From the human T2T-CHM13v2.0 reference genome, Homo sapiens: a DNA stretch of 64,000 bases. Below the pieces are notes generated by a model, which was not told where the DNA came from, ran no database searches, and saw only the letters and a program-made list of their open reading frames with translations. A program made the position numbers and the translations under genes. Numbering within the stretch: position 1 is the stretch's first letter; every line of letters begins with the position of its first letter. The DNA is taken from assembly GCF_009914755.1 (NCBI RefSeq), contig NC_060928.1, one strand, 5' to 3'. This document shows, in pieces, positions 1,169-28,409 of this stretch.

Positions 1169-4100
1169 TTTTATTTATTTATTTCATTTATATATTTTTT
1201 CCTGTACATGAATAAGTTCTTTAGTGGAGATTTTTAAAATTTGGTACACCCATCATCTGAGCAGTGTACACAGTACCCCATGTGTAGTGTTTTATTCCTC
1301 ACCCCACCCCTTTTCCCCTGAGTTCCCAAAGTTCTTTGTATCGTTCTTATGCCTTTGTATCTTCACAGTTTAGCTACCACTTATGAGTGAGAACATACGA
1401 TGCTTGATTTCTAATCCTAAGTTACTTCACTTAGAATAATGGTCTCCAATTTCATCCTGGCTGCTGCAAATGCCATTATTTTGTTCCTTTTTATGGCTGA
1501 GTAATATTCCATTAGATATATATCTATATATATATATATATCTCACATTTTCTATATGTACTTGTTGATTGATGGGCATTTGGACTGGTTCCTTATCTTT
1601 GCACTTGAGAAATGAGATAGCAACACTATAATACTGGGGGACTTCAATACTTTACTGAAAGTACTAGACAGGTCATCAAGACAGAAAGTCCAAAAGTGGG
1701 CTAATGACATGAATAGAAAATTCAAAAAGAAGATATACAAATGGCCAACAAATATATGAAAAATTCTCAACATCACTACTGATCAGGGAAATGCAAATCA
1801 AAACCACAATGCAATACCTCCTTACTCCTGCAAGAATGACCATAATAAAAAATAAATAGATGTCGGTGTGGATGTGGTGAAAAGAAAACACTTTTACACT
1901 GTTGGTGGGAATGTAAACTAGCAAAACAACTGTGGAAAACAGTGTGGAGATTCCTTAAAGAAGTAAAAGTAGATCTACCATTTGATCCAGCAATCTCACT
2001 CCTGGAATTTCCCAGAGGAAAATAAGTCATTATATGAAAAAGATACTTTCACACGTGTGTTTATAGCAGCAAAATTCTCAAGTTTTATGAATTTGGGAGC
2101 TCCAGTACTAGGTGCATATATACTTAGAATTGTCATATTTTCCTGTTGGACAAGTCTTTTTATCACCCTATAACGTCCCCTTTTGTCTTTTTAATGGCTG
2201 TTGCTTTAAAGTTTGTTTTGTCTGACATAAGAACAGCTATTCCTGCTTGGTTCTGGTGTCCGTTTGCATGAAATATCTTTTTCTACCCCTTTACCTTAAG
2301 TTTATGTGAGCGCTTATGTGTCAGTAAGTCTCTTGAAGACAGCAGATACTTGGTTGGTAAATTTTTATCCATTCTGCCATTCTGCATCTTTTAAATAGAG
2401 CATTTAGGCCATTTATGTTAAATGTTAGTATTGAGAATGTGAGGTACTATTCTATTCACCATGCTATTTCTTGCCTAAATACCTTTTATTATTGTGTTAT
2501 TGTTTTACAGGTCTTGTGAGATTTATCCTTTAAGGAGATTCTATTTTGCTATATTTTGAGGATTTGTTTCAAGATTTAGAGCTTCTTTTAGCAGTTCCTG
2601 CAGTGCTAGCTTGGTAGTGGCAAATTCTCTCAGCATTGTCTGAAAAAGACAAAGAAAATCTGCTAAGAAATCCACTGTAAATCTGGTAGGTTTTCCTTTA
2701 TAGGTTATCTGATGCTTTTGCCTCACAGCTTTTAAGATTCTCCTCTTCATCTTGATTTTAGAGAACCTGATGACTCTGTGCCAAGATGATGATCTTTTTG
2801 TGATGCGTTTCCCATATGTTCTTTGAGATTTCTTGTACTCAGATGTCTAGATCTCTAGCAAGACTGGGGAAGTTTATTTGATTAGTCCCTCAGATATGTT
2901 CTCCAAGCTTTTAGATATCTCTTCTTCCACAGAAACACCAATTATTCTTAGATTTGGTCATTTAACATAATCCCAAACTTCTTGGAGGCTTTGTTCATTT
3001 TTTTTTCAATTCTTTTTTGTCTTTGTTGGATTGGGTTAATTCAAAGCCTTATATTTGAACTCTGAAGTTCTTCCTTCTACTTGTTCAGTTCAATTGCTGA
3101 CGCTTTCCTGCACATTTTGCATTTCTCTAAGTGTGTCCTTCATTTCCAGAAATTGTGATTTTTATTTATGCTATCTATTTCACTGGAGATTTTTCCATTC
3201 ATATCGTGTCATTTTTTTTTAAATTTCTTTAAGCTGGACTTCACCTTTCTCTGGCACCTCCTTTATTAGGTTAATAATCAACCTTCTGAATTCTTTTTCT
3301 GGCAATTCAGACAGTTTTACCTTGGTTTTGATCTATTGCTGGTGAAATAGTGTGATCTTTTGAGAGCATTAAAGAACCTTATTTTGTCATATTACCAGAC
3401 TTGTTTTTCTGGTTCCTCTCATTTGGGTAGACTGTGTCAGCAGGAAGATCTGGGGCTCAAGGACTGCTGTTCAGACTCTTGTCCAACATTGTGTTCCCTT
3501 GATTTGGTACTCTCCTCTTCCCCTAGAGATGGGGCTTTCTGAGATCCGAACTGCAGTGATTTTTACTTCTCTTCTGGATCGAGACACCCAGCAGAGTTAC
3601 TGGGCTTCAGGCCAGCACTGAGGAGTGTCTGCAAAGAGTCCTGTAATGTGATCCATCTTCAGGTCTCTCAGCAGTGGATACCAACACCTGCCCCGGTGGA
3701 GGTAGCAGGGGAGTGAATTGGACTCTCTGAGGGACCTTGGTTATATTTTTGATAAGTACACTGGTTTTGTGTTGGTTTGCCTCCAGCCAGGAGGTGGCAC
3801 TTTAAAGAACATATAAGCTACAGTAGTATGGGGGGATACAAGCTTGCCCTATGGTCAGGTGGTGGATGGGGCGATAGAGCTCCCAAGAGGTTATGTCCTT
3901 TATCTTTGGCTACCAGGGCAGGTAGAGAAGAATCATCAGGTGGAGGCAGGGTTAAGCGTGCCTGAGCTCAGACTCTCCTTGGATAAGGCTTGCTGCGACT
4001 GCTGCAGGGGATGGAGATATGGGCCCCAAGCCAATGGAGTTATGTTCCCAGGGGCATTAAAGCTTCATCTGCTGTATCACACAGGTCTTCAGGGAAGAAG

Positions 4101-4466
4101 GGGAAAGCTGGAAGCCATCGACCTTTCCACACAGCCCAAAAGGCTGGTCTCACTCCCAGCGTGCCCCTCACTCAATAGCACTGAGTTTATTTCCAGGTAG
4201 CAGGTAAGCAGAGCTGAGAACTTTCCCCAGGCTACAAGCCTCCCAGCTGAGAAAGCAAGCTGATGCATAGCTCCTTGGCTTTCCCACAGAGCCTATAGTG
4301 GCAATCCTCCTTCAAAGGGTCTGTGGGTCTTCTCAGATTTCCTGGTATGTACATGTGGTAGTTCTTAAAGCAAAAGTTCATAATGTGAGTCTCCACCTGC
4401 TGCTCTGTCCATCCGAGTAAGAGCTGCAAGTTAGTCCTGCCACCTATCTGCCATTTTTACCTCTCT
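1169..4466 (-). mobile_element. L1PB-like LINE-1 (3' end to 5'UTR) with internal inversion (1603-2083) and large ORF2 deletion
   Basis: T-rich tail and L1PB 3'UTR at ~1170-1600; + strand ORF2 pieces 1604-2077; minus ORF2 5' end and ORF1 (ORF 2541..2750 RILKAVRQKHQITYKGKPTR); GC-richer 5'UTR to ~4460 ending (rc) gagaggtaaaaatggcagatagg. Confidence 0.85.
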
Positions 4467-6160
4467 GTCATTAAAGCTATTTCTAAGTATTTCCCTTTAT
4501 TATCTGAAATTCCATTAGCACACTCTCTTGATCACATTTGTTAGTTTATTTCCATTCATATTCTTATATATATGATTAGGAACAAAATATATATCATATG
4601 CCCATCTCCCTAGTATTTATTATTTTAATGCTCTGTGTCATGATCCAGCAAAAACAAAATATTATTTTTATACAATTAATGCACAATTAACTGTTCACAT
4701 TCTACACCTTGTATTTAATGAAATAATAATTGCTAGCTGTGAGAAAAGAGAAGACATTTAACCTCAAATATTTCAGCTTTTTGCAATAAAATCCTAGGAA
4801 TTGTAGTTATATTACAGGTTTCTTGTGACTACATAAGTCATTCCTAGAAACTTCAGTTTATCAGTTACAAAGATTTTTACTAAAATTAGTAAAAGACACA
4901 ATTTAAAAGGGCTTAAATTAAGAATGTATTTGTTATTTCACATGAGAAGGGATCTAGAGATTGGGTGATTCCAGAAATGATTTCCAACATATGGAAAGCA
5001 GCAGCCAAACTCAATATGCCTTCTTTGGTATATAGAATTAAACCCAGAATTTACTAATCCTGGCCACAGATAGGTGCTTTCATAGATTTCACATTCCTAG
5101 ACAATTTCATCCAAAGATAGGAGGGGGTATTATAATTGTATATTTTGTGTTTTTTTAAATCAACTTACTGAAATTATTCTTAGGTAAATACTTATTCATA
5201 AGCAGAAAGGGTTGCTCCACTTTCTGTATTAAGAGGAGACAGGCACTATGAGTGAGAAAGACACGAGTCTAGCTGTTCAATAGGCAACCAATAACATTAT
5301 TTTTCATAGTCTCTTTATAATTTCTTTGAAACATACTCTAGAAAGGTAGCATATATCCCAACAGAAAATGATTGCAACATATATGTGCATTAACAGAGAG
5401 TCACCAATTAATTATTGCAAGCATTATTTATTTTGCCTGTAACATTGCACTTGAATTTTGGCTGAAATTTTAATTTTTTCTCTTTCAATTGTTCTTAAAC
5501 TTTTGTGTGATCTTAGTATACTTTATGTTATTTATTAAATTTATTACTTGAAGAAAAAAGTGCCTGTAAATATTAACAGAAAATTTCACACACCATTTGA
5601 GATAATTGGTTCTACTGTTGAATCTCATCTGTTTATCCTTGGATGTCAATTTAATATGTATCTTCCATGGAGGCAATGATGTAGTTTGTAAATACCTCAG
5701 AACACACTCTATAATATAATTCCACAGGCTGTGTTTACTATTCAGTATGCTCAAGGTTTTGGAATTCATCTTAACCTGTGCTTCTGGTTGCCTTGCACAA
5801 TGACTTTCAAACCTTTCTGTGCTAGATTCTTCTGCTAGTACTCCGCTTCCTTCCTTACTTCCTTCTATGCTCCAACTGTCCTCTCCCATATCTCATGGGC
5901 CTAAAAATAAAACGTGTCATTTTCCAGACATCTTTGGATCAAGGAAACAGCTTTTCTGTAGGTTCCTGTAATGAAAAATACTTACATTATTTTGTAAGGT
6001 AGAAATAGCAAAAAATAAAATAAAAATGATACCACGCTAAAATGTTGATGTACATGAATGTTTGAAGCAAGCCAGCCTTACATTGCACTATTCACTTACA
6101 AGGTTCAAGAGCAAAGAGTTGCTATGGCAGAAACAGTAAGGTAATGGGATGTGGCAGCTG

Positions 6161-11970: not shown

Positions 11971-12032
11971 CTGTTAGCATTTTTGAAACTGCTTTCAATA
12001 TCTTTTGTCATAAGCACATGAGTAGAATTTTA

Positions 12033-14809
<2,777 letters not shown>

Positions 14810-15077
14810 GCACATGAGTAGAATTTTAAGGAAAATACGAGTTCATTATCTGACTATGAGGGAAGTACAGAATTAGAAGTACTGGAAGCTAGAATAGACC
14901 CTGAGCTATTAGAATTGCACTACACAATTATGGAATCCTGGTTATTGATATAGAAAGGTAAATATATAAATAGATAATAAAAATGAGTGTATGTATATAT
15001 ACATGTATAGATATGATGATATAGATAAAGCCACAAAGACAAAGATACACAATAAGAAATATACATAAAATATAAGC

Positions 15078-17156
15078 ATACATAAAAATATACACATATA
15101 TATGTTTATACATATATGACATAATATGTTTATATATTATATATAGATATATTTGTACAATATGTAGTATATTAATATATTACATATATTATATATAATA
15201 CAAACATATTCATATATATTATATATTGTATATTATATATTATATATTTATATATTATATAATTATATATTAATATTATAATATTATCTAATATTAACAT
15301 ATTATATTATAATATTATCTAATATTAACATATTATATTATAATATTATCTAATATTAACATATTATAATATTATCTAATATTAACATATTATATTATAA
15401 TATCTAATATTAACATATTGTATTATAATATTATATAATATTAATATATTGTATTATAATATATAATACATTATATTATAATATTATATAATATAATATA
15501 TTGTATTATAATATATGATATATTGTATTATAATATTATATTGTATAATATATTATATTATATTATATATTATATTATGTTATAATATTATATTATATAA
15601 TATATTATATTATATTTATGTATTAATATATTAATATGTTTATATATTATAAACATAATATATAAACATAATATATTGTAAACATAATATATGGTTTATA
15701 TATAATATATATTATATAATATATATTATATTATAATCATATATTATATATTATATAATATATATTATATTATAATCATATATTATATATAATGTAATTA
15801 TATACTATATTATAATTATAATTATAGATCATATTATTATATAATAATTATATAATTATTATATAAATATTATATATTATTATATATATTACATATATAT
15901 TATATATATTACATATATAATTATTATATAATTATATATAATAATTATATATTATATAATATTATTATATTGTATTATATAGAAATATATTATATATAAT
16001 ATAATATAAAATATTACATTATATATTATATGTTATCTTTATACTATGCACTATATAATATATATGTTATATATTACATAATATATTATATAATCTATTA
16101 TATTATCTATTATATAATCTATTATATAATAGATAATATAATAGATTATATAATATATTGTACTATATATAATAATAGATTATATAATATAATATGTATT
16201 ATATATTATGTAATCTATTATATAATATAATATGTATTATATATTATATAATCTATTATATAATGTAATATATATTACATATTATATAATATAATATATA
16301 TTATATATTATATAATCTATTATATAATATAATATATAATATAATATATAATATATATTATATAATCTATTATATAATGTAATATATATTACATATTATA
16401 TAATGGAATATATATTACATATTATATAATCTATTATATAATATAATATATATTACATAATATAATATAATATAATATATATTACATATTATATAATATA
16501 ATATATGTTACATATTATATAATATAATATATATTACATATTATAAAATATAATATATATTATATATTATATTGTATATATTAGATATTATATTATATAT
16601 TATTATTATACAATATATTATATAGTATATATAATGTTATATATTATATATATTATATAATATAATATGCATTATATATTATATAATATATTATATGATA
16701 TATATTACATATTATATAATATATTAGATATTATTATATTATATATTATTATACAATATATTACATATAATATATAATATTATATATTATATATTATATA
16801 TAATATATTATATATAATATTATATATTATATTTTATATTATATATAATATATTATATATAATATTATATTATATATAATATATTATATATAATATATAA
16901 TATATAATATAATATTATATTATATATAATATATTATATATAATATAATATTATATATAATATATTATATATAATATAATATATAATATATAATATTATA
17001 TATAATATATTATATATAATATATAATATATTATATTATATATTATATATTATATATAATATTATATAATATATTATATAATGTTATGTTTATAATATAT
17101 TACACATAATATATACATATATATGTTTATACATATATGTGTATATTTTTATGTAT
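15078..17156. repeat. ~2.1 kb AT-rich low-complexity/minisatellite array, palindromic (PATRR-like)
   Basis: Almost only A/T; 31-bp subunit (tattataatattatctaatattaacatatta) ~15274-15420; terminal IRs and central palindrome (see findings). Confidence 0.9.
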
Positions 17157-17369
17157 ATATTATTTAAATCTGCATTCCCTTAATGACTAATATGGAACAC
17201 TTTTTAAACATATATCATATATAAAAACATAAAATATATAACAAATATAAACATAAAACAAAAAAACATATATATATTTATATTTAGATACAGATATCTT
17301 ATTTTGATAAACATATGTGTGTTTCTGTGTGTATGCCTGTGAGAGAGACAGAGAGAAAAGGAGAGTAAA

Positions 17370-19086
17370 ATAGGAAATTACTCAAAGAAAGAATAAAAAA
17401 ACATCAAAAGCATAGATAACCATCTGACATGTACTTCCCAAGTCAGAAAAAATTGAAACATTTAAAAAATGAAAAATATGTGATCTGTTAAGTAAAGATT
17501 TATAAATTCCCACAATAATACACAACTCAATAAACATGCAAATAGAGAAGATACAATTCTTTTCTACAATAAGTTGTTTCTTGACCAAAGTAGCAGATTA
17601 ATAGAATTAGAAAATCATCAAATAATGGCAAAATAAAGGGAGAAATTTTCACAGATTAATTATATAATCTCAAAATAATACTGAGAAATTAGTTATTAAT
17701 TTGCCAACCCAAAGAAACTCTTCTTTAATATCTTTATTGTGGTATGTTGGCTTCAACCTTACATTTTCCAGGTGATTAATGTTGAAAAGAATAGAAGAAC
17801 ATACACAACACACTCACATACACATAAAGTAGAAGAAAGAAATCAAAGGAAAAAGAAAATTGGCAAAAATAGTACTTGGTGTGTGTGCGTGCATGTGTGT
17901 ATTTGAGAAAGGGGGAGAGGTGTTTATTTTTTGAGTTCTGTAAATTTTTCTGTGAAATTTAACTTATATCATCATGAAATTAAAATAAAACATGTAACAC
18001 CTTAATATAGACTATTCTAATAGCCAAACAAAATACTAATGGTATAAATTGAAACATAGACATAATAAAGACCAAATGCAGGAAAGTAATATATGTGTGG
18101 CATGGAGATACTGAAGAAAATGCTATTGCGGAGATTGCCACACTGGGCTTCCAGAATATATATATAGGATATCAAAACTCACCAGTAAAAAAACAAATAA
18201 CACAATAAAATTAGGTAAAAATTTAAACAGACACTTAATTTGCCCCCCCAAAAACAGTACAGGGATGACAAGTAGTAACATAAAAAGGTGTTCTAAACTA
18301 TTAATTATTAGAAAAGGTAAATTAGACAGTAAGTTGGATAATAATACACACTTAGTGTAATGCCTAAACTGTAAAAGATTGACCGTAACAACTAACAGCA
18401 AGGATGTGGAATAAATGTGAGTGTCATATAATTATAAAAATAGCTGTCATCATTGTAATTTTATGTAAAATTGTTCTATCATTTTGAAAAAGAGCTGGAG
18501 GTTTATGAAATATTTAAACTTATACCTGTGTATAAGTCTGCCGTTCCAATGCTAGGAGTTGCCTAGCCAAATTGAAAGCATATACCCCACAAAAGTATTT
18601 TTACACAAATGTTTACTGTAGCTATTTTTAATAACCACACTTGGAAAAAAACAAAATACCTACCAACAATGAAGAAATAACCATGGATAAATCATACTCG
18701 GTGAAAGAATCCAAATAAAATAATATATACTGTATGATTCATTTATATAAAATTTTTGGAAATGCAAACAAATCAACAGTAAGAAAAGGTATGTCATTGT
18801 TTTAGTCAAGGGGGAGGAAAGAGGAGAGAATTGTATAAGGGCATGAGGAAACTTACGGGGATGATGGTTAAATTTTTTATTTTAATTTTGATGGTTTCAC
18901 AGTTACATGCATGTTAGTATGTATCATGTTATACAATTTAACATGTCGAGTTATTTTATAATCATGCCAATTAAAGCTATTAAATTTGAAAATTTTAATG
19001 TTAGTATGTATCATGTTATACAATTTAACATGTCGAGTTATTTTATAATCATGCCAATTAAAGCTATTAAATTTAAAAATTTTAAT
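17370..19086 (+). mobile_element. Decayed L1M (L1MC/ME-like) fragments ending in a 3' end
   Basis: ggtaaaaatttaaacagacacttaa, caaggatgtggaataa, atactgtatgattcatttatataaaat, gggcatgaggaaacttacggggatgatgg motifs. Confidence 0.6.
18911..19086. repeat. 87-bp tandem duplication (2 copies, 1 mismatch)
   Basis: atgttagtatgtatcatg...aaatttRaaaatttta at 18911 and 18998; visible as a 29-aa repeat in ORF 18907..19104. Confidence 0.95.
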
Positions 19087-27132: not shown

Positions 27133-27307
27133 ATACATATACTATAAATATAATACATATACTATATATGTATTATACATATACTATATATGTATTATAC
27201 ATATACTATATATGTATTATACATATACTATATATGTATTATACATATACTATATATGTATTATACATATACTATATATGTATTATACATATACTATAAA
27301 TATAATA
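27133..27307. repeat. 22-bp AT-rich minisatellite (6 perfect copies 27153-27284 plus flanking variants)
   Basis: Unit atacatatactatatatgtatt at 27153, 27175, 27197, 27219, 27241, 27263. Confidence 0.95.
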
Positions 27308-28409
27308 AAATTCTATATATATTTATATATAATATATAATGTATATATATTATATATACATTATATATAATATATAAATATAATACTATAATGTCAACTA
27401 TGAGAGCAGTGCATGTTGTCACTAATGTTCACTATTTTATCATGAGTACATAGGCAAGTGCCTACTTATGCTAAATATCTGTTAATAATGAATGTCCAGT
27501 GAAAGAATAGGCACATTTTTAATATAGATGTAAAACTATATTAAAATGAGATTGAAATTAGTTATACATTGGCTTATAATCCCACATATGCATTTTTTTG
27601 TACTTTATTTCTTATAGGACAATATCAGAATAACACAAACTCATATAGTGTTGTGTTTCCATGGATACAGACTATCTAAATAGAAAAGACATTGTAGTTT
27701 TAATTACTTGCTTTTGGCAAGATCAAAGATAGAGTGTTCTTCAGACACTCATTGGGAATATATATTTCTAGCATAAAAGTAATGTTCAAATTTTGCTTAA
27801 TATTTTTAAATGCTTGCATTCATCAAATACTGAAACTTGCAAAGCTAAACATTCAATTATGATTAATCTGTAAAGTATGCTTATGTCTTTCTGTACAAGA
27901 TTTCCTTAGTTTGTTAATAGGATATGTAGAGATAAATTTAATAATCAATTTAATAAATTTGTTTCTCAAATCCTTAAAAGTAACTTTTATTTTGAGATGT
28001 TCTTAGGAATAGACAATACCAACCAATTTATATTATTTTTAAATATTCAGTGTTTAATAGTGTAAATTGTATATTTTCACTAAAATACAAAGTTCAATTA
28101 AGAGTTTATCCTCCTCAATATTTATTTTACTGCTATGCTGTGAAAGGCTATGCATTTTTCAAATGTATTTAAAACATGAAAATAAAGCAGAAACAGCACA
28201 CACTGTAATCATGAGAGAACGCTATATTTCTAAGAGTTTTCTCAAGCTATTTTCTTTAAGAGATCACAGTATATCGTAGTTTTACACATGAATAATGTGC
28301 AATAGCAAACTCACCCAAGAGTAATTCAGCATGTCATTTAAAGAAATGTGAATTGCTATCTTGTCTCCTATTATTCCAATCCAGTCCTGATCCTTTATAC
28401 AAAGCAGAG

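What the first reader, a model, noticed from the sequence alone, without database searches (positions are those of the whole stretch)
15078..17156. 2.1 kb AT array with PATRR-like symmetry: terminal inverted repeats centred on a perfect palindrome
Seen: a perfect 24-bp inverted repeat bounds the array (atacataaaaatatacacatatat 15078-15101; its rc 17133-17156), with midpoint ~16117. A perfect palindrome with 39-bp arms and a 2-nt spacer (16080-16118 / ct / 16121-16159) is centred at ~16119, essentially the same point. The arms in between are not obviously exact mirror images. Known: palindromic AT-rich repeats (11q23, 22q11, 17q11) extrude cruciforms and drive translocations, and AT-rich minisatellites underlie FRA10B/FRA16B. 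Inference: a candidate cruciform-forming, length-polymorphic fragile element.
Basis: partly seen in the sequence, partly recalled or inferred. Interest (0 to 1): 0.75.

Follow-up and report, generated by a model that had tools for sequence, protein, structure and literature searches.

The report
Ordinary AT-rich minisatellite, small central palindrome
This is a 2.1-kb patchwork of AT-rich tandem repeats in a gene desert; it holds one short perfect palindrome and matching inverted ends but is not a large palindrome, and it looks like many other such arrays in the same genome.

Summary
They are a 24-bp perfect inverted repeat at 15078-15101 / 17133-17156 and a perfect palindrome with 39-bp arms at 16080-16118 / CT / 16121-16159. 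Their centres lie 2.5 bp apart. Both are longer than in any composition-preserving shuffle.

The roughly 975 bp between them on each side are not mirror images. Left arm against the reverse complement of the right arm scores 480. The direct, reversed and complemented controls score 478, 473 and 477. A synthetic palindrome stayed detectable at 25% substitutions plus 10% indels. Symmetry stops abruptly at 39 bp.

The array is a mosaic of 12-, 26-, 31-, 45-, 52- and 114-bp repeats that differ between the two halves. The central palindrome is a local orientation flip in a 12-bp unit.

The terminal repeat looks like the two arms of a small 58-bp hairpin. That hairpin is split by an array bracketed by a 25-bp direct repeat.

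In sister AT arrays of the same genome, 9 of 19 carry perfect palindromes with arms of 39 bp or more.

Verdict: an ordinary compound AT-rich minisatellite, not a PATRR. The shared centre is most likely coincidence.

The parts
15094..17172 (.). Whole AT-rich array: a block with at least 88% A+T in 100-bp windows. G+C is 4.5-7%, against 24-40% in the flanks.
   Evidence: TRF describes one degenerate array at 15112-17163 with 66-69% matches at periods 5, 7, 10 and 24. It holds 748 AT dinucleotides, and the longest pure TA run is 9 bp.
15078..15101 (+). Left arm of the 24-bp perfect terminal inverted repeat.
   Evidence: It is the only inverted match of 15 bp or more between the two boundary zones. 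Shuffles reached at most 20 bp.
17133..17156 (+). Right arm of the 24-bp perfect terminal inverted repeat.
15094..15118 (+). Left copy of a 25-bp perfect direct repeat that brackets the array. It overlaps the left inverted-repeat arm by 8 bp.
   Evidence: Shuffles reached at most 21 bp. It is the core of a 62-nt direct repeat, 15087-15148 / 17108-17169, at 77% identity (family D11).
17115..17139 (+). Right copy of the 25-bp direct repeat. It overlaps the right inverted-repeat arm by 7 bp.
   Evidence: Collapsing across the direct repeat leaves a 58-nt perfect hairpin with 24-bp arms, a 10-nt loop and -19.5 kcal/mol.
17092..17163 (+). Local quasi-palindrome at the right boundary. It folds on its own.
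   Evidence: -16.8 kcal/mol, z -4.56, 0 of 200 shuffles as good. The left boundary folds weakly (-6.7 kcal/mol, z 0.13).
16080..16159 (.). Central perfect palindrome: 39-bp arms and a CT spacer. It consists of seven phased 12-bp units whose CT core flips to AG at the centre.
   Evidence: (-29.4 kcal/mol, z -10.35). There is no mirror similarity beyond the arms at 30-300 bp.
16121..16190 (-). Block of inverted orientation, with TAGAT markers at 16130, 16142 and 16176. It sits inside units that otherwise point forward (ATCTA at 16093-16117 and 16213-16429). The end coordinate is approximate.
15240..15640 (+). Sub-arrays of the left half: a 31-bp unit (about 15240-15420, carrying ATCTA and AACAT markers), then a 52-bp unit (about 15400-15640).
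   Evidence: (families D4, D5, D7).
16120..16497 (+). 114-bp higher-order repeat, 3.3 copies, 85% matches. It starts at the centre of the palindrome.
   Evidence: Self-match at a 114-bp shift is 0.92 in 16200-16439.
16764..17082 (.). Pure A/T stretch of the right half with 45-, 31- and 14-bp periods. It holds further perfect palindromes: 16912-16982 (35-bp arms), 16835-16897 (31), 17007-17062 (25) and 16907-16956 (25).
   Evidence: (no G/C between 644 and 963 bp right of the centre).

Best explanation
This is a compound AT-rich minisatellite: about 2.1 kb, 94.6% A+T, in a gene-free part of chromosome 4. It was built by repeated slippage and duplication of several different short units, with a few local orientation flips. 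It is not one large palindrome.

The 80-bp central palindrome is one such flip in a 12-bp unit whose A/T backbone is already self-complementary. It most likely arose by a short-range template switch during replication. This origin is inferred.

The 24-bp 'terminal inverted repeats' are the two arms of a small pre-existing 58-bp hairpin-type palindrome. The array lies inside that hairpin, bracketed by a 25-bp direct repeat. The geometry is shown; the history is inferred.

The two symmetry centres falling within 2.5 bp of each other is most likely coincidence.

The expected behaviour is that of other AT-rich arrays (inferred). The duplex melts easily. The single strand folds into many local hairpins during replication. 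These promote slippage, so copy number should vary between people. The array may be mildly fragile under replication stress, but it lacks PATRR-type translocation activity.
For: Shown by the sequence:
- The arms are not mirrored. Scores are 480 (reverse complement) against 478, 473 and 477 for the control orientations, and 440 +/- 8 for shuffles.
- Marker 13-mers shared between the left and right arms give 76 inverted pairs against 86 direct pairs. The G/C marker spacings differ between the arms, and the right arm has a 320-bp stretch with no G/C.
- The test had power. Synthetic palindromes made from the left arm scored 443 in mirror orientation against at most 332 for the controls, even at 25% substitution plus 10% indels.
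- Symmetry ends exactly at 39 bp.
- The two halves carry different repeat periods.
- Unit orientation flips several times along the array: +++ / --- / +++++ / --. The array holds 21 perfect palindromes with arms of 14 bp or more, including arms of 35, 31, 25 and 25 bp elsewhere.
- A 25-bp direct repeat overlaps both inverted-repeat arms, and collapse across it gives a perfect 58-nt hairpin. The loop has the same orientation at both ends, which is the opposite of what a giant palindrome would give.

Comparison with the class:
- Pieces of the array found 1576 and 2628 first-look candidates in the same genome. Forty were scored per search and matched at 73-84% identity on both strands.
- In 19 sister arrays the longest perfect palindrome arm ranged from 21 to 65 bp, and 9 of 19 reached 39 bp or more.
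- Of 19 sister arrays, 11 have a terminal inverted repeat of 20 bp or more.
- In the 16 sisters with a terminal repeat of 16 bp or more, the longest palindrome lies 12-1858 bp from the midpoint of the longest terminal repeat. Centring is therefore not a property of the class.

Literature:
- 7340 AT-rich sequences were catalogued in hg19, and overlap with double-strand-break peaks rises with AT-unit number (PMC11697705, passages, table).
- 69,888 palindromes longer than 50 bp exist in the reference genome (PMC7680136, passage).
- Short-range template switching creates inverted copies in human genomes (PMC9435742 and PMC7954356, abstracts only).
Against: - For one pre-specified palindrome in a roughly 2-kb array, a 2.5-bp coincidence of centres has a chance of about 0.003. 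None of the 16 sister arrays shows it top-against-top; the nearest is 12 bp. Coincidence is therefore a judgement that rests on post-hoc selection, not a demonstrated fact.
- For 12-mers more than 100 bp apart, the 20-bp bin of inverted-pair centres at 16120 is the highest (147, against 133 and 131 for the next, median 53). Central bins are favoured by geometry, and 16- and 20-mers peak near 16900 instead.
- In the single-strand minimum-energy fold, the terminal stem (22 of 24 pairs) and the central hairpin (38 of 39 pairs) both form. A nested fold is therefore energetically available.
- The sister arrays were chosen as best matches to a query that contained the palindrome. This may enrich them for palindromic sequence.
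- No population or ape sequence could be examined, so the proposed history and the predicted length polymorphism are untested.
Confidence: 0.8

Rival explanations
1. The array is a degenerate giant palindrome with a true PATRR-like origin. An inverted duplication made a roughly 2-kb perfect palindrome. The terminal inverted repeat and the central 80 bp are what survives, and the arms have since been remodelled.
For: One event would explain the shared centre (16117 against 16119.5) and the nearly equal arms of 978 and 973 bp. The single-strand fold closes the whole array with the terminal stem.
Against: The arms show no excess mirror similarity, although the test detects palindromes as diverged as 25% substitution plus 10% indels. 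Slippage strong enough to erase all similarity should not preserve arm length to within 5 bp. The two halves carry different repeat units. The boundary loop is in direct, not inverted, orientation at the two ends, and a 25-bp direct repeat brackets the array. Centring is absent in 16 sister arrays.
Confidence: 0.05
2. The 80-bp central palindrome extrudes a cruciform in duplex DNA and makes the locus a PATRR-like hotspot for double-strand breaks and translocations.
For: It is a perfect A/T-rich palindrome with only a 2-nt spacer and strong predicted self-pairing: -29.4 kcal/mol, z -10.35. Cloned human AT-rich sequences of 0.6 and 1.8 kb formed cruciforms and were fragile in yeast (PMC11697705).
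Against: Cruciform propensity depends on length and central symmetry. PATRR17 (about 190 bp) and the asymmetric alleles showed no cruciform at physiological ionic strength (PMC1851657). Modelling found that short partial extrusions in roughly 94% AT DNA lose to simple denaturation (PMC3834812). The extrudable length here is 80 bp, set in 2 kb of 94.6% A+T. Palindromes of this size are common: 69,888 longer than 50 bp genome-wide (PMC7680136), and 9 of 19 sister arrays match or exceed this arm length.
Confidence: 0.12
3. The element is a DNA transposon or MITE, bounded by 24-bp terminal inverted repeats.
For: It has perfect 24-bp inverted ends.
Against: There is no target-site duplication of 2-10 bp outside the ends. 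The 86-bp left boundary matches nowhere else in the 3.1-Gb genome above 90% identity, and those weaker matches are at most 81 bp long, so there is no family of copies. The interior is a simple AT repeat. The ends are explained by the split 58-bp hairpin.
Confidence: 0.01
4. The symmetry is an assembly artefact. Long-read assembly or polishing mis-built the AT array.
For: Long AT-rich, hairpin-forming repeats are hard to sequence. A preprint title and abstract report long-read bias at inverted repeats (10.64898/2026.07.13.738322, listing only).
Against: Nothing in the sequence suggests a chimeric join. The array has a coherent internal repeat structure. Sister arrays across many chromosomes show the same kinds of palindrome. 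Read-level data were not available here.
Confidence: 0.03

Closest known systems
Genome-wide 'AT-rich sequences' catalogued by Xie et al. 2024 (PMC11697705), including the fragile 16p11.2 and 22q11.2 examples
   Same: It meets their stated criteria as read: at least one (AT)3, more than 90% A+T per 100 bp (96.4% of windows here) and more than 25 AT units (748 here). It would fall in their largest size class, which holds 262 of 7340 sequences. Its size is similar to their 1.8-kb 22q11.2 test fragment.
   Different: No break, CNV or yeast-fragility data exist for this locus. It lies in a gene desert rather than at a recurrent-CNV breakpoint. I could not show that it is in their hg19 table.
AT-rich minisatellites of the rare fragile sites FRA16B and FRA10B
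   Same: Both are AT-rich tandem repeats of units tens of bp long. Both have strong predicted secondary structure. The proposed mechanism is the same: replication stalling and slippage (PMC2875025).
   Different: FRA16B is an array of one 33-bp unit. It shows fragility when expanded to as many as 2000 copies, while normal alleles have 7-12 copies. This array is a 2.1-kb mosaic of at least six different periods. No expanded allele or cytogenetic fragility is known here.
Palindromic AT-rich repeats (PATRR11, PATRR22, PATRR17, PATRR8)
   Same: More than 90% A+T, with a perfect, nearly spacerless centre.
   Different: PATRRs are nearly perfect palindromes over their whole length of several hundred bp. 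Here only 80 bp are palindromic and the remaining roughly 1.95 kb are not.
Inverted copies and perfected quasi-palindromes made by short-range template switching (PMC9435742, PMC7954356, PMC8604942)
   Same: There is a discrete inverted block with sharp ends. Variant bases are mirrored: the CT-to-AG cores and the A/T unit variant. It sits in a sequence that was already nearly self-complementary.
   Different: The origin is inferred from one haplotype, with no ancestral state to compare. Only the abstracts of these papers were seen.
Expanded (TA)n dinucleotide repeats that make MSI cancers depend on WRN
   Same: A/T-only self-complementary DNA that is proposed to form cruciforms (abstracts).
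   Different: This is not a dinucleotide repeat. The longest pure TA run here is 9 bp.

Membership tests
PATRR (palindromic AT-rich repeat) | More than 90% A+T | tested here: met
   94.6% A+T over 15078-17156. Criterion taken from PMC4940405.
PATRR (palindromic AT-rich repeat) | Nearly perfect palindrome over several hundred bp (for example L-PATRR11: about 447 bp, 98.4% arm match) | tested here: not met
   The perfect symmetry covers 80 bp only. Beyond it the mirror orientation scores no better than the controls at 30-300 bp or over the full arms (480 against 473-478). The positive control was detectable at 25% substitution plus 10% indels. Criteria.
PATRR (palindromic AT-rich repeat) | No spacer, or a very short one, at the centre | tested here: met
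   2-nt spacer CT at 16119-16120.
PATRR (palindromic AT-rich repeat) | Translocation breakpoints at the palindrome centre; de novo events in sperm | not testable with these tools
   No breakpoint or population data were available.
AT-rich minisatellite of the FRA16B/FRA10B kind | Tandem array of an AT-rich unit tens of bp long | tested here: met
   Periods of 12, 26, 31, 45, 52 and 114 bp occur in successive blocks. The array is compound rather than built from a single unit.
AT-rich minisatellite of the FRA16B/FRA10B kind | Expanded alleles (up to about 2000 copies) that express a cytogenetic fragile site | not testable with these tools
   Only one haplotype was seen, and it is 2.1 kb long. 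Criterion from PMC2875025.
AT-rich sequences as defined by Xie et al. 2024 | Contains (AT)3; more than 90% A+T in 100 bp; more than 25 AT units | tested here: met
   ATATAT is present. There are 748 AT dinucleotides. The median 100-bp A+T is 0.95, and 96.4% of windows reach 0.90. Criteria.
(TA)n microsatellite (WRN-dependent class) | Long uninterrupted TA dinucleotide run | tested here: not met
   The longest pure TA/AT run is 9 bp.
DNA transposon / MITE | Terminal inverted repeats plus a target-site duplication and multiple genomic copies | tested here: not met
   Inverted ends are present. There is no 2-10-bp duplication outside them and no second copy of the boundary in the genome.

The most novel reading that the evidence does not exclude
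The nested, co-centred symmetry is not chance. On this reading the array grew outward from the loop of a small 58-bp palindrome by a process that keeps the two sides equal in length while their sequences diverge. One example would be repeated hairpin-templated or template-switch synthesis around a persistent central hairpin. If so, small palindromes would be nucleation sites for AT-rich minisatellites. The 25-bp direct repeats, brought together by the terminal stem, would also allow clean loss of the whole array, leaving an 'empty' 58-bp hairpin allele in some people.
Probability: 0.05. Interest if true: 0.45.

Novelty: new member of a known kind. Interest (0 to 1): 0.12.

Why it matters
It matters little as a discovery. 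Arrays of this kind number in the thousands per human genome, and their instability is already studied.

The useful result is negative. Two perfect inverted repeats sharing a centre do not make an AT array a PATRR. The right null for palindromes in such DNA is other natural AT arrays, not composition shuffles. Shuffles make a 39-bp arm look extraordinary, while 9 of 19 sister arrays match or exceed it.

The one locus-specific point is the split 58-bp hairpin at the array borders. It gives a concrete, checkable hypothesis about where this array started and how it could be lost.

Tried and rejected
- **Giant-palindrome reading.** Tested by four-orientation global alignment, histograms of inverted k-mer centres, G/C-marker mapping, stepwise extension from the centre and a synthetic positive control. 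Rejected.
- **Transposon or MITE reading.** No target-site duplication and no other copies. Rejected.
- **RNA gene or miRNA hairpin.** An Rfam scan of 13500-18500 at E up to 1 gave two chance-level hits of 25-26 bits, against gathering scores of 90-100. Rejected.
- **(TA)n class.** The longest TA run is 9 bp. Rejected.
- **Is the split-hairpin border general?** In 19 sister arrays, 11 show the same direct-plus-inverted geometry. All of those hits lie 46-229 bp inside the array and are made of A/T units with 0-1 G/C. None lies at the border. The feature is not general.
- **Is the locus in the published hg19 AT-rich table?** The 25-bp direct-repeat word was not found, but cells in that file are cut at 400 characters. 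A coordinate search found nothing, probably because of how the text is tokenised (after a format error). Left open.
- **More sister arrays.** The empirical null therefore rests on 19 usable arrays of 20 fetched. L051 had no block of at least 500 bp at 88% A+T or more and was dropped. Only the larger of the two blocks in L043 was counted.
- **Two paper look-ups added nothing specific.** One was 10.64898/2026.03.05.709836. The other was a failed term in PMC11995269, not repeated.
Full report
**1. The observation**

The sequence was read directly and checked by script. Positions 15078-15101 and 17133-17156 are exact reverse complements (24 bp, midpoint 16117). Positions 16080-16118 and 16121-16159 are exact reverse complements around a CT spacer (39-bp arms, centre 16119.5). 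Neither repeat extends by one more base in either direction. The 2079 bp between the outer ends contain A 956, T 1010, C 61 and G 52, which is 94.6% A+T. G+C is 4.5-7% inside the array and 24-40% outside.

Both repeats beat composition-based nulls:
- The longest perfect palindrome in 300 dinucleotide shuffles of the array had arms of 18.3 +/- 2.7 bp (max 30).
- Markov simulations of order 4, 6 and 8 (200 each) gave maxima of 28, 31 and 33 bp. None reached 39.
- Shuffled 301-bp boundary zones gave a longest inverted match of 13.8 +/- 1.6 bp (max 20) in 200 shuffles.

The features are real products of copying, not of composition.

**2. The array is not a palindrome**

The region between the two features is 978 bp on the left (15102-16079) and 973 bp on the right (16160-17132).
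- Global alignment of the left arm with the reverse complement of the right arm scores 480. The direct orientation scores 478, the reversed 473 and the complemented 477. Dinucleotide shuffles of the right arm score 440 +/- 8.
- All four orientations exceed the shuffles because the arms share short A/T words. The mirror orientation has no advantage.
- The test has power. Synthetic palindromes made in a script from the left arm scored 855 at 5% substitution plus 1% indels and 443 at 25% plus 10%, while the three control orientations stayed at 306-400.
- Stepwise extension from the palindrome's ends over 30, 60, 100, 150, 200 and 300 bp gives mirror scores of 11, 18, 35, 63, 91 and 136. The controls give 8-9, 13-17, 35-41, 61-67, 86-98 and 137-148. 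Symmetry stops at the 39th base pair.
- 13-mers containing a G or C that are shared between the two arms give 76 inverted pairs and 86 direct pairs. The spacing of G/C markers from the centre matches only at 12 and 24 bp, inside the palindrome. The right arm has no G or C at all between 644 and 963 bp from the centre, while the left arm has many there.
- In favour of symmetry: for 12-mers more than 100 bp apart, the 20-bp bin of inverted-pair centres at 16120 is the highest (147, against 133 and 131 for the next two, median 53). Central bins are favoured by geometry, though, and for 16- and 20-mers the peak lies near 16900.
- The generic repeat finder listed 3326 inverted pairs. Its 25 longest all lie within 16150-17123 at 70-77% complementarity, which is the background level for this composition.

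**3. Anatomy**

The array is a mosaic. TRF sees one degenerate array (15112-17163, 66-69% matches at periods 5, 7, 10 and 24). Local analysis resolves these blocks:

| Region (approx.) | Period | Note |
|---|---|---|
| 15240-15420 | 31 bp | |
| 15400-15640 | 52 bp | |
| 15560-16040 | none clear | degenerate stretch |
| 16040-16200 | 12 bp | |
| 16120-16497 | 114 bp | 3.3 copies, 85% matches; self-match 0.92 |
| 16360-16680 | 26 bp | |
| 16760-17080 | 45 / 31 / 14 bp | pure A/T |

The array contains 21 perfect palindromes with arms of 14 bp or more and a spacer of 10 nt or less. After the central one come arms of 35 bp (16912-16982), 31 bp (16835-16897), 25 bp (17007-17062) and 25 bp (16907-16956), all in the right half.

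Printed in phase, the centre is seven 12-bp units. One unit reads AATATATTATAT. Three carry a CT core (AATCTATTATAT, TATCTATTATAT, AATCTATTATAT). Two carry an AG core (AATAGATAATAT, AATAGATTATAT). The last reads AATATATTGTAC. The 10-bp A/T backbone of the unit is itself self-complementary, so only the core dinucleotide and one unit variant mark orientation, and all of these are mirrored. That points to copying rather than convergence.

The orientation markers ATCTA (+) and TAGAT (-) run as follows: + at 16093, 16105 and 16117; - at 16130, 16142 and 16176; + at 16213-16429 (five sites); - at 16582 and 16725. The central palindrome is therefore the left junction of a roughly 70-bp inverted block. 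Its right junction is imperfect, and further flips occur elsewhere in the array.

**4. The 'terminal inverted repeats'**

A perfect 25-bp direct repeat also brackets the array (15094-15118 and 17115-17139). It overlaps the left inverted-repeat arm by 8 bp and the right arm by 7 bp. It is the core of a 62-nt direct repeat at 77% identity, spaced 2021 bp apart (family D11). Shuffled boundary zones give at most 21 bp.

Collapsing the sequence across the direct repeat, from either copy, leaves a 58-nt perfect hairpin: 24-bp arms, a 10-nt loop and -19.5 kcal/mol as single-stranded DNA. The loop segment has the same orientation at both ends of the array, which is the opposite of what a giant palindrome would show. 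The right boundary still folds as a local quasi-palindrome (-16.8 kcal/mol, z -4.56), while the left one does not (z 0.13).

My reading, which is inference, is that a small palindrome existed first and the AT array now sits within it between two copies of its loop-proximal 25 bp. There is no 2-10-bp target-site duplication outside the inverted ends. The 86-bp left boundary has no other copy in the 3.1-Gb genome: of 11 matches, only the self-match is 100%, and the rest are 77-90% identical over 40-81 bp. The transposon reading is therefore rejected.

The split-hairpin border is not general. In 19 sister arrays the same geometry appears in 11, but always 46-229 bp inside the array and built from A/T units, never at the border.

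**5. Comparison with natural AT arrays of the same genome**

Two pieces of the array (16040-16460 and 15260-15700) found 1576 and 2628 first-look candidates. Forty were scored in each search, giving 207 and 223 matches at 73-84% identity (apart from the 100% self-match), typically on both strands of each locus and spread over many chromosomes.

I fetched 20 of these loci. One locus (L051) had no block of at least 500 bp at 88% A+T or more and was dropped, leaving 19 main blocks of 632-4362 bp.
- Their longest perfect palindrome arms are 36, 62, 22, 50, 40, 46, 26, 30, 65, 23, 37, 24, 24, 62, 21, 41, 45, 56 and 36 bp. Nine of 19 reach 39 bp or more.
- Palindrome density is 2.2-73 per kb, against 9.4 per kb here.
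- Perfect inverted repeats between the two border zones reach 20 bp or more in 11 of 19 and 24 bp or more in 1 of 19.
- Sixteen sisters have a terminal repeat of 16 bp or more. In these, the distance from the midpoint of the longest terminal repeat to the centre of the longest palindrome is 12-1858 bp. None is 2.5 bp or less. Allowing any terminal repeat of 16 bp or more against any palindrome with arms of 20 bp or more, 3 of 16 fall within 3 bp.

Caveat: these loci were chosen as the best matches to a query that included the palindrome, which could enrich them for palindromic sequence.

The upshot is that a 39-bp-arm palindrome and a terminal inverted repeat of about 20 bp are ordinary for this class, while centring is not a class property.

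**6. How unlikely is the shared centre?**

For one palindrome placed uniformly in a roughly 2-kb array, the chance of landing within 2.5 bp of a fixed midpoint is about 11 half-positions in 4000, or 0.003 (my arithmetic). Xie et al. list 7340 AT-rich sequences in hg19, with 262 in the largest class at a mean length near 1 kb (PMC11697705, supplementary table). If each large array had one terminal repeat and one top palindrome, about one or two such coincidences would be expected genome-wide, and many more among shorter arrays (my rough estimate). The finding was also selected post hoc by a reader scanning for anything striking. I therefore treat the shared centre as probable coincidence, while noting that this is a judgement and not a demonstration.

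**7. How it probably behaves**

As single-stranded DNA the central 100 nt fold at -29.4 kcal/mol (z -10.35, 0 of 200 shuffles as good). The whole 2116-nt region folds at -438.5 kcal/mol into a multi-branched structure in which the terminal stem (22 of 24 pairs) and the central hairpin (38 of 39 pairs) both form. Half of all pairs span 64 nt or less. This fits the replication-template hairpin and slippage mechanism proposed for FRA16B (PMC2875025, passages).

For cruciform extrusion from duplex DNA, the published PATRR work points the other way:
- Propensity depends on length and central symmetry. PATRR17 (about 190 bp) and the short asymmetric alleles gave no cruciform at physiological ionic strength (PMC1851657, abstract and passages).
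- Modelling showed that in roughly 94% AT repeats a short partial extrusion is out-competed by denaturation (PMC3834812, passages).

The extrudable length here is 80 bp inside 2 kb of 94.6% A+T. I could not run that model on this sequence.

The array is not a (TA)n repeat of the WRN-dependent kind, since its longest TA run is 9 bp (abstracts). FRA16B-type cytogenetic fragility needs expansions of up to about 2000 copies, against 7-12 copies in normal alleles, and this allele is 2.1 kb. Length polymorphism is expected from the young internal repeats (114-bp units at 85-92% identity, 31-bp units nearly identical) but was not tested.

**8. Relation to what is known**

The element meets the printed criteria for the 'AT-rich sequences' of Xie et al.: (AT)3 is present, 96.4% of 100-bp windows reach 90% A+T, and there are 748 AT units. 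Two members of that class were shown to be fragile in yeast.

It fails the defining PATRR feature of a nearly perfect palindrome over several hundred bp. Palindromes longer than 50 bp number 69,888 in the reference genome, and the longest are AT-rich (PMC7680136, passages).

The likely origin of the central palindrome is short-range template switching, which makes inverted copies and perfects quasi-palindromes. This is documented in human and ape genomes (PMC9435742, PMC7954356 and PMC8604942, abstracts only).

No Rfam family matches the region. No literature search addressed this locus itself; my only attempts to place it in print were the two look-ups in the published hg19 table, and both were inconclusive.

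**9. Verdict**

The PATRR-like reading of the whole array is not supported, while the AT-minisatellite analogy holds. This is a new, unremarkable member of a known and numerous kind. The only locus-specific curiosity is the small hairpin split by the array, together with the exact centring. Population and ape sequence could settle both quickly.

Noticed in passing
window 12019-14813: LINE-1 sequence abuts the left flank, recognised by eye from ORF2-like text at 14700-14813 (my recollection, not a tool result). It ends abruptly at about 14813 and does not resume after the array. The array is therefore not an L1 tail expansion.
   Followed up: no
window 14940-15077 and 17157-17390: Both flanks are low-complexity sequence rich in TATACA/TATGTA-type words. 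TRF finds periods of 17-24 bp at 17206-17274. A GT/GA-rich patch follows at about 17318-17380. The AT array therefore sits inside a broader low-complexity zone.
   Followed up: partly
L049 (G000:C23:104883000-104891000), block 3523-6030: In this 2.5-kb AT array on contig C23, the longest perfect palindrome (45-bp arms) lies 12 bp from the midpoint of the best terminal inverted repeat. It is the closest echo of the present finding among the 16 sister arrays tested. The halves are not clearly mirrored: 643 in mirror orientation against 597-615 for the controls.
   Followed up: partly
L041 (C23:135.62 Mb), L034 (C6:149.94 Mb), L046 (C1:106.0 Mb): Other AT arrays carry longer perfect palindromes than the one reported: arms of 65, 62 and 62 bp. 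L046 packs 53 palindromes with arms of 14 bp or more into 724 bp.
   Followed up: no
window 27215-27410: This is the only other stretch of the 64-kb window with at least 88% A+T over 150 bp or more. It was not examined.
   Followed up: no
hits on C22 near 19.27, 20.72, 30.92 and 32.61 Mb and on C10 near 114.98 Mb: Sister AT arrays include loci on C22 and on C10. I did not check whether any of them coincides with the known PATRR22, LCR22 or FRA10B sequences.
   Followed up: no
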